Assembly (NCBI GenBank): GCA_964343575.1 | Contig: CAYFJV010000001.1 | Coordinates: forward strand, 596,705 to 660,704 | From: an uncultured Methanosarcinales archaeon | GTDB taxonomy: Archaea > Nanobdellota > Nanobdellia > Woesearchaeales > GW2011-AR9 | Direction: 5' to 3' | Length of the DNA stretch: 64,000 bases | Shown: positions 21,001 through 27,000 of the stretch, one piece after another | Position numbering within the stretch: the stretch's first letter is position 1 | Layout: each line of letters starts with the position of its first letter | Position numbers: made by a program

Positions 21001-24000
21001 GATTTGTATTGGGCAGTGATTGATAGTGCCCATGCAGCGCTTATGAAACATGGACATGTCCCTCCTTCTCCTGATCACATGGCAAGCATGCTCGATAAGG
21101 CTTTCGTTAAAAAAAGAAAATTGGAAAAAGAATATGTTGAGACCATGCGACGTTTCTACAAATTAAGCAAAATGATCACTCACAGAGAGATCAAAGAAAT
21201 CAAAGGAAAAGAGTTTGAGGCTTACTTCAAAGAAGCTGAAGATTTTGTCAAGCGTATGCGCAAGCTGATTATGCATGGTTGATGTTGTGTTTTTGTTAAG
21301 GAAGGATACTCATCAATAACAACTGTGTCCTAAGAAACAAAAAGCACCTGCCGGGCGACGCCTTATGTATTCCTGTCCACCCCCAGATTTTTCTCCTTCC
21401 AGTCCAAAAATGGCTCCCAGGAAGATCACTTCTTGGTTTTGCTGTGGTCGCAATAAGGCAGGAGTGCACTCTCTTAGGACACAGCCATCAACAACAAAAA
21501 CCTTTAATAATCACTAGTTCTTCGTCTTTCTTGATGAAAGAAATTATTTGGCCTCACGTGCTCAAAAATGCTGCTGCTTTTGGTGGAAAAGCAAATATCA
21601 AAGTGGTTCTTGGGTTTGTTTTGCGGGCACACCCTGAGTTGAAAAAAGATGTTGGTGCGGTGCTCAAAACAATTTCTGAGCTCTCTGGAGACGTTGAAAA
21701 GATGTCTCTTGAAGAGATTAAAGCTGAGCTAAAGAAACAAGGAGCGCACCTAGAGAAGGATGGGAAAAAGGAAGAGGCCAGTGGGAAGAGAAAAAGTGCT
21801 ACTGTTAAAGGTCCGCTCAAAGCTCTAAAGAATGCTGAGGTTGGAAAAGTAAAAGTGCGTATGGCGCCAAGCCCTAGCGGACCCTTACACATTGGTCATG
21901 CTTATGGCGCACTCATTAACGCGCTTTACGCCGAGATGTATAAAGGAAGTTTGCTTCTTCGCATTGAAGATACCAACGCCGAAAACATTTACCCTCCTGC
22001 TTACGAACTTATCGAAGAAGATACCCGCTGGTTAGTTGGAGATATCCTCAAAGAAGTGGTAGTGCAAAGTTCTCGACTTGATCGTTATTATCTGCATGCT
22101 AAAAAACTCGTTGAAATTGCTAAGGCTTATGTTTGTACTTGTGATAATGATGAGTGGCGTTCACTTAAGGCAAAGGGAAAAGCTTGCCCTTGCCGAGAGT
22201 TGGAGGCAAAGGAGCAACTTGAACGTTACGAAAAATTGTTTGACGGCTATGCTGAAGGAGAAGCGGTGCTTCGTTTGAAAACAGATATTGCTCACAAAAA
22301 CCCTGCAATGCGTGATTTTGGTATTATGCGTATTGTAGAGAAAAAGCATCCTAAGACCGGGAGCAAGAATCGCGTGTGGCCACTTATGGTTTTCTCAGTT
22401 GCAATTGATGATCATGAACTTGGCGTGACTCACGTGCTTAATGGAAAAGATCATGAAGATAACGGAAGAAAAGAGGCTTTGATTATGAGTTATCTTGGTT
22501 GGAAAGCTCCAGAATACCAACATTGGGGAAGAATCAACTTTGAAGGTTTTAAACTGAGCACGAGTAAGACGCGCCTAGCTATCGAACAAGGAGAGTATGA
22601 TGGTTGGGACGATATTCGTCTTGCTACCTTAGGTGCTCTTCGTCGTCGAGGTTATGCAGTTGAAGCATTCAGAAGGTTTGCTATGGAGATTGGCCTCAGC
22701 AAGAACGACAAAACAGTAAGTTGGAAAGAGTTTTGGAAAATGGTTAACGCCTTTGATCGAGAGGTTAACGAAGAGAAGGCTAATCGTTATTTTTTTGTTG
22801 CTGATCCTGTGGAAATTGTTATGCAAGGGTTTTCTGGAAAAGAAGTTGCACTTGATTTACACCCTGATTTTCCTGATCGAGGCAGTAGAAAGTTGCTTGC
22901 TCGAGAAGGTTTTTATTTAGCCCGCGAGGACTTTGACAAGCTTGAGGAAGGGAAGGTACATCGTTTGATTGATTGTTTGAATTTTGTTATTGAAGGAGGC
23001 GTTGCTCGTTTTGTTTCCGAGAGTTATGAAGATTATAGTAGGGCGGGGAAAGAGAAAAAAGGAAAAATTATTCACTGGCTAGCGATTGGCGAGAGCAAAG
23101 TTGATGTAGAATTAATGCTTGAAGATCATGGTATTTTGAAAGGGTTTGGAGAGAAAGGGCTTGCTGATCTTAAAGAAGGAGATATTGTGCAATTACAGCG
23201 GGTGGCTTTTGCTCGTATTGATAAGGTAGAAAAAGGAAAAGTTAAAGTATGGTATTTACATAAGTAGAGAGTAAGGGGCTTGCTTAACTTATGGTTTTTA
23301 GTTTTGAAAAGGTAATGGGTGGTTTATATGGCAAAAATTAGTATTGATACTCCTTTGGCTGAGCTGACACTTCGTCGCTATGAAAAGCCAAGCGCAGATG
23401 ATCGCGACTTAGTTCGACGCCTTTGCTTGTCTCTTGGTCTTTTGCAGCCAGGAGATTCACGAGATGTTATCGTAGATGTCTTCTACGTGCTTTTGAAAGC
23501 TCGGCAGCGTCGCGAAGAGTTACATTCTGAAGAGATTAAGAATTTGGTTATGGCACAGCGAAAAGAGCGTGGTTTGCCTATGCTTGGGGTTGCATCTTCG
23601 AACATTCGTCGTCAGTTGAAAAGGATGAAAGATTTGCATTTGATTGAAACCAATGCTAACTTGTACCGGATCACTGAATTTTCTTCACTTGGAGAGATCT
23701 TTGAAGAGAAAATTGAGAACTTCATTCTGAACTCTGTCTTGAATCGAGTAAAAGATTATCTTGGAAGGATTGATCAAGAGTTTGCCGAGGAGAAAAAAGA
23801 AAGGTAAGAGTTTTTCTTGATCTTGAAATTCTTATCTTTTGGAGAGAGTATTTTCTTTCTGACCTACAATTTGTTTGCAATAGTGTTCTTTGGCCAGCTA
23901 AATGTTTAAATATGCTTTTTCAACTTTGTTAATTGATAAGCTATGAGTATATTTTCTGATGAGAACCACGCAGCCTATATAGATACAAGAAGGGCGGCGT

Positions 24001-27000
24001 GGGGAGCACTTGCAAGAGTTGATCCCGTTGAAGGGCTCTCTGTAACTTTTAATGAGCAACGCTTCATTGGGAATAGGGAACGTTGCCTAGAAGATATTTT
24101 AGGAGATTCTCGCATAGTCATTGTTTCTGGGGCTTACTTTGGTGATGAAGCAAAGGGAAAAGTTACCGACAGTATTGCTCGTTTAGAAGATATTGTTGCA
24201 GTTGCACGGGTAAACTCCGGTGCTAACGCGGGACATACTGTTTATGTTGATGGAGTGAAGTATGTCTTCCATATTTTACCTTCTGCAGTGGTCAATGGTG
24301 TGAAGTGCTACATTGGTCCAAATGTTGTTGCAGATCCTGTTTCTCTTATGGACAATGAGATTGGAAAACTCGTTGACAAGGGGATTAGTTATGACAATTT
24401 GATGGTGGGAAATATGTTCATTACCACACCGTATCATAAGATTATGGATGTGCTGGGGAGCAGAACTAACTCTTCTACAGGTGTTGGCATCTCTGGAACC
24501 CACGCTTCTATTGCTACAAAGAGCTGTCCTCGTTTGGATGATTTTTTTCAATCTGAAGGGCATCAGCGAGCTCGCTTTGAGAGAGATATGAAAAAACATT
24601 GGCTTGGCTTTGTTGTGCAGTTGGGTTTGGAGAGAGCACGTGCTCTTGGTATGGCTGGGGTGACAAGTGCTCTTGATGAATATATCTTACGATTAGGGAA
24701 TGAAGCAATTGTAGAACGCTTAGAAGAGATTCGGGCAAGCGGCGCTGGTGGGCAACGTAAAGTTCCAGATCATGTTTTAGAGTTTGCAAAGGCAGAAGAC
24801 AAGTCTGCTTTTCTTATTGATCTTTACCGAGAAAGAGTTGTTGAAGATGAGGCATTTCCAAGACGAGGAGATGTCACTGCTGAGCTTCAAAAAGACCTGA
24901 GAGCAGAAGGAGCGAGAATTCTCTTGGAAAGCCCACAGAGTGTTCTGCTCTCAAGTGCAGTACCACAATTACAAGATACAGGTACATCTGCACAAACACA
25001 CGCAGAAGGAGTTTTAGCAACATCTGGTGTGAACGCATCTGAAGAAGGTTACGTGATCATTAATGTGAATAAATTTCCTGCTCCTTCCCGAGTTGGAATT
25101 GGAGATATTCCTGCTTCTTTTACCACCCAAGATCGTTTTTCCAGCGCAGACATTAGCACTATTGATGATTTGTGTGGTGCTTGCACCGACTTTGATGGGA
25201 TTCAGAGAGCTTATTTTGAAGCAATTGGAGAGAATGGCGTCTTGGCTGCTGTAGAGTACACCGACTCCACTGGAACTTATCTCATTGATGAAGCTATGGC
25301 CATGGCAAGTTGCCAGCAATTTGGAGAAGAAGGGGCCACCACAAGAAAACCAAGAATTACTGGATTGTATGATTGCGTTTTAGGTAGCCTGGTAAATCAA
25401 AGGCAGGGCCCGCACTTAGTGCTTTCTTGTATGGATAGAGGAGACCATTGTGATTATGTTGGCCTTACCATTGCTTATGTGGTGCACCTTAGCGAGAAGG
25501 GAGACTTTTTAGAAGATGGGGACGGAAGGTATGTGGATTCTGGTGGAAGGCGCTATAGAAGTGGAGAGATTATTCGAGCTGGACACGTTGTTCCAGGCCA
25601 TAATGTGCTTAAACATTGTTATTCTATCACTAAAGTGATGGATGGATGGAAAGATAGCCCTATTGGATCGGATACGGGCTTTGTTGCTCACGAAGGAGCA
25701 GAACTTCCTAGAAATGTTGCCAATGTTATTGGAGCAATTGAATTCTATTCTGGTTTTGAGGTGGTGGCTATTGGTAATGGTGTTAACCCAGAAGATCTCA
25801 TTTGGATTGATAGAGAAGCAGCTTGAAAGTGAGAGAAGAGAGTAAGAAAAGTTGCAAAAGTAAAATAAGAGAAAGTAAAGAAATAATTGACAAGCTAAAT
25901 AATATCTTCTTCTGCTACAACGATGAAATCGCCAGTAGCGATTACAGCAGAAAATGGAATGAGAATCTGTCCTTCTCGGTTCTGCTCAAGTTCCATACGA
26001 TCAGTATAAGAAGTTGGATTTCTTAAGACCAAGTGAATCAGCTCGCCTGAGCCCACCTCAAAGACAAGGTCGCCCACATCACCAAACTTTTTTCCTGATT
26101 TAGAAACGATAGTTTTCCCTAGAAGTTCTCTAGAATAATTTTTCTCTTTTTCCATTGCTCTACCCCCTCACAGAGTTATCTCTTAACGACAATAAGTTGT
26201 AAGAAAAACTAGGGCCAAAAGCGTATTTAAACTTTTTGGTGAAGAAAAGGTTACAAAAAAGAAGTGAGGAAAGAAAAAAAGTGAAGAAAAAAGAAAGAAA
26301 AAACCAGTTCCCTGGCTTATCTTTTAGTTCCGCCTACCAGCAAAGCTAGCAAAAATACTAACAATGCAAAGACTACCAAAATCGCAGCTACTAACCAAGC
26401 TACTGCTCGGATGTTCTCCCAAGCAAACTCTCCATTCTCAGTAGTAAAAGTTACTGGAAGACTAGGAGTATTTGTTTCTGCGCCAGGCAAGACAGTGATT
26501 TCAACTTCGTCGTCATCATCGTCAGCACTGGTTGTGGTAGTTGTAGTGGTGGTTGTAGTAGTTGGAGGAGTGTAAGGTGTTGCAGCTTCTCCATCTCCAC
26601 GGTATCCAGCACCATAGGTAAGCACATCTGAGATGTCATCTAAAAGCTCATCGATGTCATCAAGAAGGTCTTCTAGACGCTCTTCAAGCTCTTCTTGCAA
26701 GTCTTCATCAAGGTCGTCATCGTCCTTGATCTCATCAAGAAGGTCTTCTGTATCGTCTTTAAGAGTTTCTACATCTTCTTCGATGTCTTCAATGTTCTCT
26801 TCAGCATCTTCGATGTCACGATCATCATCGTCACGCTCAGCGTCTTCAAGCTCGTCTTCTTCGTCCTTGAATTCATCTTCAAGGGTTTCAAAGCGCTCTT
26901 CAAGATCTACAACAGACTGCTCTTCATCACTCAAGTCTTCAGCTACAGTGATAGTAAAGCTTTGAGTTGTACTTGCGCCAGTTGCATCGCTAAAGGTTAA

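What a model noticed while it worked through the whole genome (the two positions that open the first line are those of the whole stretch)
23943..25826. Kinetoplastid-type long adenylosuccinate synthetase
The only adenylosuccinate synthetase (g00671, 627 aa) is not of the bacterial, eukaryotic-cytosolic or short archaeal type. It aligns over about 570 residues at 42-44% identity with the unusual long AdSS of Leishmania and Trypanosoma, whereas canonical AdSS match only its first catalytic-core stretch. The long form is patchy in Woesearchaeales, pointing to a gene shared by transfer between this archaeal lineage and the kinetoplastid line (direction unknown).
Evidence so far: All five best Swiss-Prot hits are trypanosomatid AdSS, E 1e-140..1e-136, query 49-624. 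PDB: 22 canonical AdSS sequences (E. coli 1ADE, mouse 1IWE, Plasmodium 1P9B, Pyrococcus 2D7U/5K7X and others) reach only E 5e-22..6e-11 and cover query about 54-220. Pfam Adenylsucc_synt matches in two pieces, 60-219 and 306-619. In 30 other families of the order (one genome each) only 2 have a match at E<=1e-60, both covering only residues ~260-624. Three papers hold adenylosuccinate synthetase + Leishmania + archaea, none relevant by title and abstract.
(Added by a program. Inside this text positions count along the whole contig: contig position 596,705 is position 1 of the stretch shown here. "Call 12" and the like, gene names such as g00115 and contig names such as C1 are that model's own, and its searches are not shown. 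The text may have been shortened before it was handed on; [...] marks where a part breaks off. The agent that wrote the report below was given it as the finding of a first reader that could run no searches.)

Follow-up and report, generated by a model that had tools for sequence, protein, structure and literature searches.

The report
Archaeal kin of trypanosome purine enzyme
This tiny-genome archaeon carries an unusually long version of the purine enzyme adenylosuccinate synthetase, the version also used by trypanosomes, Euglena and their relatives; family trees suggest that the ancestor of those protists took the gene from this archaeal group, though not from this organism's own branch.

Summary
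The ORF is real: 627 aa, single copy, full AdSS fold, catalytic residues kept, 42% identical to Leishmania and T. brucei AdSS. 'Kinetoplastid-type' is too narrow. The long form (about 580-630 aa) is a distinct subfamily found full-length in 18 of 401 genomes of this order (17 of 136 families), and in euglenids, diplonemids, kinetoplastids, Bodo saltans virus, dinoflagellates and other algae. It was not found in samples of Patescibacteria, Asgard- or Aenigm-centred phyla. All eukaryotic copies form one clade (100/97) whose inner order matches euglenozoan phylogeny, and that clade sits among the archaeal long forms. Its nearest sisters are three other proteins, one labelled Woesearchaeota by NCBI. 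Best reading: one transfer from a Woesearchaeota-like archaeon into the euglenozoan ancestor, then spread between eukaryotes. The direction is significant only with that labelled protein included (AU p=1e-6; without it p=0.16-0.18), and I could not see its contig. This window's gene is a long-resident, typical member, 37th of 78 in likeness to Leishmania, not the donor branch. Its role here is unclear: no adenylosuccinate lyase was found. No paper on this origin turned up in ten searches.

The parts
23943..25826 (+). Long-form adenylosuccinate synthetase (purA), 627 aa
23943..24104 (+). N-terminal extension (residues 1-54) absent from E. coli PurA, present in archaeal and eukaryotic long forms
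   Evidence: helix 6-23 in the model, pLDDT 82-96
24141..24239 (+). P-loop G67-D68-E-A-K71-G-K73 and N95-A-G-H98-T99 (E. coli D13, K16, N38, H41)
   Evidence: residue roles recalled from E. coli work
24624..24782 (+). Helical insertion, residues 228-280; about 30 residues shared with L. major, about 22 particular to this protein
25131..25322 (+). Insertions within residues 397-460 before the aspartate loop, shared with eukaryotic long forms
25326..25439 (+). Aspartate loop E462-G464-A-T466-T467-R-K469-P-R471 and guanine motif S495-C-M-D498-R499 (E. coli T300, T301, R303, R305, K331, D333)
25503..25577 (+). Beta-rich insertion, residues 521-545
23319..23807 (+). Upstream 162-aa ORF without Pfam or NCBIfam match; synteny marker, 67-78% identical beside purA in family relatives
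21444..23267 (+). Glutamyl-tRNA synthetase, synteny marker
25895..26155 (-). PRC-barrel protein, downstream synteny marker, 80-90% identical in family relatives

Best explanation
The protein is a GTP-dependent adenylosuccinate synthetase (IMP + L-aspartate + GTP to adenylosuccinate) of a distinct long subfamily: the ordinary AdSS core with an N-terminal extension and three inserted regions. One Woesearchaeota-like lineage, not this genome's branch, passed it to the common ancestor of Euglenozoa. A derived copy from the diplonemid side then reached dinoflagellates and other algae, and Bodo saltans virus took a copy from bodonid hosts. Shown: fold, residues, distribution, tree shape. Inferred: activity, direction, order of events.
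For: Fold: AF2 pLDDT 92, pTM 0.91; Z 29.7 and 29.5 to PurA against 25.9 to PurZ0. D68, K71, N95, H98, T179, Q332, T348, T466/T467, R471 and D498 align to E. coli catalytic and binding residues. Context: an IMPDH-family gene is adjacent in 14 of 28 genome-placed long-form loci, adenylosuccinate lyase adjacent, one ORF away or fused in 3. Trypanosomatid members are genetically shown to serve AMP synthesis (PMC10208901, passages). Trees: eukaryotes one clade (100/97; 100/99-100 under C20), ordered euglenids, then kinetoplastids and diplonemids; sister rows P0352 (NCBI: Woesearchaeota), P0351, P0360 (100/99; 99/95). Archaeal monophyly rejected when P0352 is included (p=1e-6) and seen in 0 of 200 bootstrap trees without it. 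Archaeal long forms are more diverse (median 44% identity) than eukaryotic ones (56%). No long form in 401 Patescibacteria-centred, 151 Asgard-centred, 101 Aenigm-centred genomes, or in the viral and phage collections.
Against: With only genome-placed archaeal loci, monophyly of the archaeal forms is not rejected (p=0.159; p=0.182) and the backbone is a polytomy. The contigs of P0352, P0351 and P0360 were not seen (searches did not recover them); one NCBI MAG label carries the nesting, and P0352 and P0360 have skewed composition. The outgroup rows (510-650 aa basal forms) have no known taxonomy. Groups for the AU tests were named after seeing the tree. This genome shows no lyase, GMP synthase or de novo purine genes, so the product has no evident next step. 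No activity was measured. Other Discoba and most bacterial phyla were not surveyed.
Confidence: 0.68

Rival explanations
1. Common third source: an unsampled prokaryote or virus gave the long form separately to this archaeal order and to stem Euglenozoa, so the two groups are sisters and the link is indirect.
For: Archaeal monophyly is not rejected without the three sister proteins. Basal long forms of unknown origin exist (P0029, P0030, P0119, P0123, P0031, P0033), one pair with W in place of G as if from a recoded bacterium. One cluster member is labelled Nomurabacteria.
Against: P0352, labelled Woesearchaeota, is the strongly supported sister. The Nomurabacteria-labelled protein nests inside the family-f1 archaeal clade (100/100 with L194).
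Confidence: 0.2
2. Eukaryote to archaeon: the long form evolved in a stem euglenozoan and was taken up by this archaeal order.
For: The form spans all three euglenozoan groups but is patchy in the archaea, down to 1 of 9 and 1 of 4 genomes within a genus.
Against: No archaeal row falls inside the eukaryote clade (100% of bootstrap trees); archaeal forms are more diverse; basal forms lie between canonical and long and group with no eukaryote.
Confidence: 0.06
3. Ancient paralogue inherited vertically from the archaeal ancestor of eukaryotes and lost in most lineages.
For: The scattered eukaryotic range (Euglenozoa, dinoflagellates, Octactis, an intron-bearing algal copy) could be read as differential loss; such patterns are discussed in PMC1920508 (abstract).
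Against: 0 of 151 Asgard-centred genomes hold it; the algal copies nest as sister to diplonemids (100/100), which conflicts with eukaryote phylogeny (recalled).
Confidence: 0.04
4. In this genome's branch the enzyme has drifted from the IMP-to-AMP role (another substrate, or decay under relaxed selection).
For: No lyase-family gene in 8 of 15 long-form genomes tested, this one included; AMP can come from an MTAP-APRT fusion; purA is about 45-55% identical between family members while its neighbours keep 67-90%; G15 to A and K140 to I here; H41 to R in 19 rows of the sister subclade.
Against: All main catalytic residues are intact in this protein; the frame is whole and the model confident; an H41R member is fused to a lyase; the genome is 95% complete, so purB may be unassembled; no baseline for lyase absence in canonical-purA genomes of the order was measured.
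Confidence: 0.15

Closest known systems
Trypanosomatid adenylosuccinate synthetase (L. major 710 aa, T. brucei 602 aa)
   Same: 39-42% identity over the whole length; same insertions, same S-x-x-D-R guanine motif, Lys at E. coli positions 143 and 303; one clade apart from canonical AdSS.
   Different: Archaeal; no long Leishmania-type N-terminal leader; extra 22-residue insert; lies in another subclade; no lyase partner found.
Canonical PurA/ADSS (E. coli 1ADE, Campylobacter 3R7T, mouse 1IWE; PF00709, TIGR00184)
   Same: Whole fold (405 residues at rmsd 2.8 to 3R7T; TM about 0.8 by target length) and catalytic residues.
   Different: About 200 residues longer; 118-128 bits against cut-offs of 395-402; K331-L-D-V replaced by C-M-D-R.
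Short archaeal PurA (Pyrococcus 5K7X, NF003295)
   Same: Core fold, Z 29.7, rmsd 2.1 over 329 residues.
   Different: 65 bits against a cut-off of 368; nearly 290 residues longer.
Phage PurZ / PurZ0 (7VF6, 6FKO, 7ODX)
   Same: Fold, Z 22-26.
   Different: Keeps Asp at position 13, where PurZ has Ser (recalled); 46 bits against 300; cellular context.
Punctate prokaryote-derived enzymes shared by distant eukaryotes (PMC1920508)
   Same: One acquisition, then a scattered range across unrelated eukaryotes (abstract only).
   Different: Those donors are bacterial; here the nearest relatives are DPANN archaea.

Membership tests
Adenylosuccinate synthetase (PF00709) | Pfam model above gathering score | tested here: met
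   163.6 bits against 27
Adenylosuccinate synthetase (PF00709) | AdSS fold over the whole core | tested here: met
Adenylosuccinate synthetase (PF00709) | P-loop with Asp13 and Lys16; His41; Asn38, Thr129, Gln224, Thr239; Thr300/301, Arg305; Asp333 (roles recalled) | tested here: met
   D68, K71, H98, N95, T179, Q332, T348, T466/467, R471, D498
Adenylosuccinate synthetase (PF00709) | Arg143, Arg303, Lys331 | tested here: inconclusive
   K193, K469, C496; the same kind of change is carried by the working trypanosomatid enzymes (K, K, A)
Adenylosuccinate synthetase (PF00709) | IMP + Asp + GTP activity | not testable with these tools
   needs assay or complementation
Adenylosuccinate synthetase (PF00709) | Homodimer with shared active site | not tested
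   no complex job run
Canonical PurA equivalogs (TIGR00184, PRK01117, PRK04293, PRK13783, PRK13785) | Score above curated cut-off | tested here: not met
   65-128 bits against 368-700
PurZ / PurZ0 | Ser in place of Asp13 (recalled); NF038379 cut-off | tested here: not met
   D68; 46 bits against 300
Long (trypanosomatid-like) AdSS subfamily | Full-length alignment, shared insertions, S-x-x-D-R motif | tested here: met
   R499 in 114 of 114 eukaryote-clade rows, 75 of 78 other long rows, 3 of 62 outgroup rows (three family-f1 divergent forms were among the outgroup rows)
Long (trypanosomatid-like) AdSS subfamily | One clade with the eukaryotic enzymes, canonical AdSS outside | tested here: met
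   99/96 for 19 archaeal plus 10 eukaryotic rows; 100/100 with basal forms
Sister (donor-side) lineage of the eukaryotic enzymes | Branches next to the eukaryote clade | tested here: not met
   query in a separate 100/100 clade; rank 37 of 78

The most novel reading that the evidence does not exclude
The core purine enzyme ADSS of every euglenozoan group, sleeping-sickness and leishmaniasis parasites included, came by one transfer from inside the Woesearchaeales (DPANN) into the euglenozoan ancestor, then moved on to dinoflagellates, other algae and a giant virus. That would be a datable DPANN-to-eukaryote transfer, evidence of early contact between these archaea and protists, and a minimum age for the Woesearchaeales radiation.
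Probability: 0.62. Interest if true: 0.75.

Novelty: new variant of a known kind. Interest (0 to 1): 0.62.

Why it matters
The chemistry is most likely ordinary; the history is not. A supported gene transfer from DPANN archaea into the ancestor of a eukaryotic phylum would explain why trypanosomatid ADSS is so unlike the host enzyme, would tie the DPANN and eukaryote timescales together (the donor lineage must predate crown Euglenozoa), and names a testable contact between these archaea and protists. No long-form AdSS appeared among solved structures, so compact archaeal members offer stand-ins for a studied parasite target. The frequent lack of a recognisable adenylosuccinate lyase in carriers, even one with a de novo purine operon, is a second open lead.

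Tried and rejected
Artefact or contamination: rejected; 665-kb contig, archaeal neighbours, GC3 at the 35th percentile of 357 long ORFs and codon distance below the median of 125, synteny in 9 of 10 family long-form loci. Recent transfer into this genome: rejected on the same grounds. PurZ-like role: rejected (D68). Viral carrier: no long form among 263 confirmed IMG/VR relatives (best 80 listed, best E 1e-17), nothing with the Bodo saltans virus protein as query, only canonical-level matches in GenBank phages; BFVD fold hits are 13-19% identical. The genome-wide contig scan was swamped by canonical purA. Atlas searches gave only family-level leads. (0 of 71) is of doubtful phylum identity, since the draw held a genome labelled as a Patescibacteria member; not used. 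Co-transfer of the neighbouring IMPDH-family gene: one neighbour tested (L161) matched IMPDH, not trypanosome GMP reductase. A Shine-Dalgarno argument for P0360 being prokaryotic was too weak to use. Earlier scan notes: nothing. Boitz 2013 not held.
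Full report
OBSERVATION. Window 23943-25826 (+) encodes an intact 627-aa protein, the single AdSS match in the 1.21-Mb, 95% complete genome. Pfam PF00709 matches at 163.6 bits in two stretches; all six NCBIfam AdSS or PurZ models stay far below their cut-offs; 23 PDB sequences match only within residues 54-220. BLASTP gives 41.7% to L. major (623 columns), 42.3% to T. 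brucei gambiense (586) and 39.0% to T. cruzi (620), but 51.8% to a protein labelled Nanoarchaeota.

ANATOMY. An AlphaFold2 model from 29 sequences has pLDDT 92 and pTM 0.91. It matches PurA over the whole core: Z 29.7 (5K7X, 329 residues, rmsd 2.1), Z 29.5 (3R7T, 405 residues, rmsd 2.8), PurZ0 25.9; Foldseek agrees. Against E. coli PurA, D68, K71, N95, H98, T179, Q332, T348, T466, T467, R471 and D498 stand at D13, K16, N38, H41, T129, Q224, T239, T300, T301, R305 and D333 (roles recalled). The extra length is an N-terminal 54 residues and insertions at 228-280, within 397-460 and at 521-545, shared with L. major apart from about 22 residues. Subfamily marks: S-x-x-D-R for T-K-L-D-V (R in 114 of 114 eukaryote-clade rows and 75 of 78 other long rows), and mostly Lys for R143 and R303. 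Asp at position 13 argues against a PurZ role.

DISTRIBUTION IN PROKARYOTES. With a profile of 29 long forms, 196 of 401 genomes of the order have some AdSS match at E<=1e-10, and 18 have a full-length long form at E<1e-200, in 17 of 136 families (one of the 18, G375/L161, is an unpublished genome, also used as one row in the trees; seven other unpublished genomes add only to the 196). Own family: 10 of 101. Phylum draw: 12 of 301, all in this order (how many drawn genomes lay outside the order is not shown). Not found in those searched: 0 of 401 in the phylum of a Magasanikbacteria-labelled genome, 0 of 101 around an Aenigmatarchaeota-labelled one, 0 of 151 around a Heimdallarchaeota-labelled one. 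It is patchy even inside genera (1 of 9, 1 of 4). One homologue is labelled Nomurabacteria but nests in the family's archaeal clade.

DISTRIBUTION IN EUKARYOTES. A search with the Lacrimia lanifica homologue (named) gave 263 hits at E<=1e-40, best 120 listed: Leishmania, Trypanosoma, Leptomonas, Angomonas, Strigomonas, Herpetomonas, Bodo saltans, a Neobodo-labelled protein, Bodo saltans virus, a Noctiluca-labelled protein, and Euglena longa, Entosiphon sulcatum, Namystynia karyoxenos, Dinoflagellata sp. TGD, Abedinium folium and Octactis speculum (group assignments recalled). A metagenomic locus holds a copy of the algal type in about ten pieces with GT-AG introns at 64% GC (L238), so that type is nuclear in at least one alga; its repeats look haptophyte-like by recall only.

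TREES. FastTree on 254 rows (192 long after dropping 15 duplicates of 207; 62 of 199 outgroup candidates; 574 columns) put all eukaryotic rows in one clade inside the archaeal long forms. IQ-TREE LG+G4 on 84 chosen rows (27 eukaryote-clade, of which 20 carry a eukaryote or virus source label; 51 others; 6 basal) gave eukaryotes 100/97, split into euglenids, then kinetoplastids with the virus among bodonids (100/99) and diplonemids plus the algal clade (100/100); this matches euglenozoan phylogeny as recalled. Sister are P0352 (NCBI: Woesearchaeota), P0351 and P0360 (100/99). The query lies elsewhere, in a 14-row clade (100/100). Three long-branched family members (L200, L203, L204) were left out of the IQ-TREE sets. 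A C20 mixture tree on 32 rows keeps P0352+P0351 as sister (98/96) and P0360 next (99/95). AU tests, with groups named: all 51 non-eukaryotic long forms as one clade, rejected, p=1e-6; 26 genome-placed loci plus two NCBI-labelled proteins, rejected, p=1e-6; the 26 genome-placed loci alone, not rejected, p=0.159; 19 genome-placed loci without the three sisters under C20 with a canonical outgroup, not rejected, p=0.182, although archaeal monophyly appeared in 0 of 200 bootstrap trees and the backbone is unresolved. So the nesting is favoured throughout but is significant only through P0352, whose contig I could not see. Independent hints: no archaeal row falls inside the eukaryote clade; genome-placed archaeal forms are more diverse (32-65%, median 44%) than eukaryotic ones (45-96%, median 56%); and no long form was found in IMG/VR.

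CONTEXT AND ROLE. Across 28 genome-placed long-form loci an IMPDH-family gene is adjacent in 14 (13 directly upstream on the same strand); a lyase is adjacent in G447, one ORF away in G016 and fused into one 1120-aa frame in G444; purL, purQ, purN, purH, purE, purK and GMP synthase flank others. This supports the normal IMP branch-point job for the subfamily; knockouts and knockdowns show it for trypanosomatids (PMC10208901, passages). In this genome's family the gene sits between a conserved 162-aa ORF after GluRS and a PRC-barrel gene in 9 of 10 long-form loci (one or both markers), with typical codon use here: long-resident, not newly acquired. But this genome shows no lyase, GMP synthase or de novo genes. 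It has an MTAP-APRT fusion and an IMPDH-family protein whose catalytic half scores slightly better with T. brucei GMP reductase than with IMPDH (211 against 205 bits). A lyase-family gene is missing in 8 of 15 long-form genomes tested, five of them at least 92% complete; no baseline was measured. The physiological role here stays open.

LITERATURE. Ten searches listed no paper on the origin of euglenozoan ADSS or on AdSS in Woesearchaeota. Passages read: PMC10874023 and PMC7052976 (purine salvage in Euglenozoa, no origin given for ADSS), PMC2868825, PMC11976288 (a speculative DPANN affinity for ATP-citrate lyase, not AdSS), PMC10208901, bioRxiv 2022.01.11.475817 (no mention). PMC1920508: abstract only. 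PMC4053834: 12 of 16 supplementary files searched, no hit; four unseen files may bear on this. Boitz 2013 and subscription papers on Leishmania ADSS were not available, so prior notice of the enzyme's odd phylogeny cannot be excluded.

VERDICT. A real, probably ordinary-acting enzyme of a long AdSS subfamily whose archaeal half appears undescribed. The notable result is the likely transfer from Woesearchaeota-like archaea to the ancestor of Euglenozoa (about 0.65), with later spread among eukaryotes; this window's gene is a pointer to that story, not the donor. New variant of a known kind; interest 0.62.

Noticed in passing
L209:6823-10182 (-), G444: One 1120-aa frame fuses adenylosuccinate lyase (N-terminal) to a long-form AdSS: a purB-purA fusion.
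   Followed up: partly
L194-L199 and 13 further proteins: The catalytic His41 position is Arg in 19 long forms of one family-f1 subclade.
   Followed up: no
G000, G257, G083, G451, G481, G410, G470, G492: No lyase-family gene found although purA is present; G257 has purL, purQ, purN, guaB, purA and purH in one cluster, which needs a SAICAR lyase. Possible unrecognised enzyme.
   Followed up: partly
L207:16968-18419 (+), own genome C1 near 552 kb: CBS-bearing IMPDH-family protein without an Arg-Tyr flap; catalytic half scores best with T. brucei GMP reductase, by a small margin.
   Followed up: partly
L206:15752-17146 (-), own genome: MTAP-APRT fusion, both halves above an NCBIfam cut-off.
   Followed up: no
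L207:6702-7349 (+), own genome: Sigma-70-like protein (regions 2 and 4) in an archaeal genome, just downstream of the exosome gene cluster.
   Followed up: no
P0335: Bodo saltans virus long AdSS nests among bodonid sequences, so probably host-derived; a second, 336-aa AdSS-like protein of that virus is in BFVD.
   Followed up: partly
P0289: The Euglena longa transcript encodes two long AdSS units in tandem, 1057 aa; may be an assembly artefact.
   Followed up: no
P0353: A Namystynia (diplonemid) protein falls in the dinoflagellate/algal clade: donor-side paralogue or contamination.
   Followed up: no
family f1 genomes: Very mixed AdSS forms in one family: open frames from about 400 to over 1200 aa, and divergent 610-625-aa forms (L200, L203, L204), one at the same GluRS-PRC site as the window's gene.
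   Followed up: partly
P0032, P0033: Basal long forms with W at normally Gly positions (W 4-4.5%), as if TGA=Gly genes were translated with TGA=Trp.
   Followed up: no
window 23319-23807 (+): 162-aa ORF with no family match yet 67-78% identical across family relatives.
   Followed up: no
window about 28900-37300 and onward: Run of co-oriented ORFs that by eye resemble a helicase, primase, DNA adenine methylase, ParB-like protein and terminase: possibly an integrated virus (not scanned).
   Followed up: no
window 15625-16809 (-): 2-oxoglutarate/Fe(II) dioxygenase (DIOX_N, 2OG-FeII_Oxy), unexpected in a small DPANN genome.
   Followed up: no
L002-L004: Records titled 'uncultured Methanosarcinales archaeon' carry long-form AdSS; the titles look doubtful and were not used as evidence of range.
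   Followed up: no
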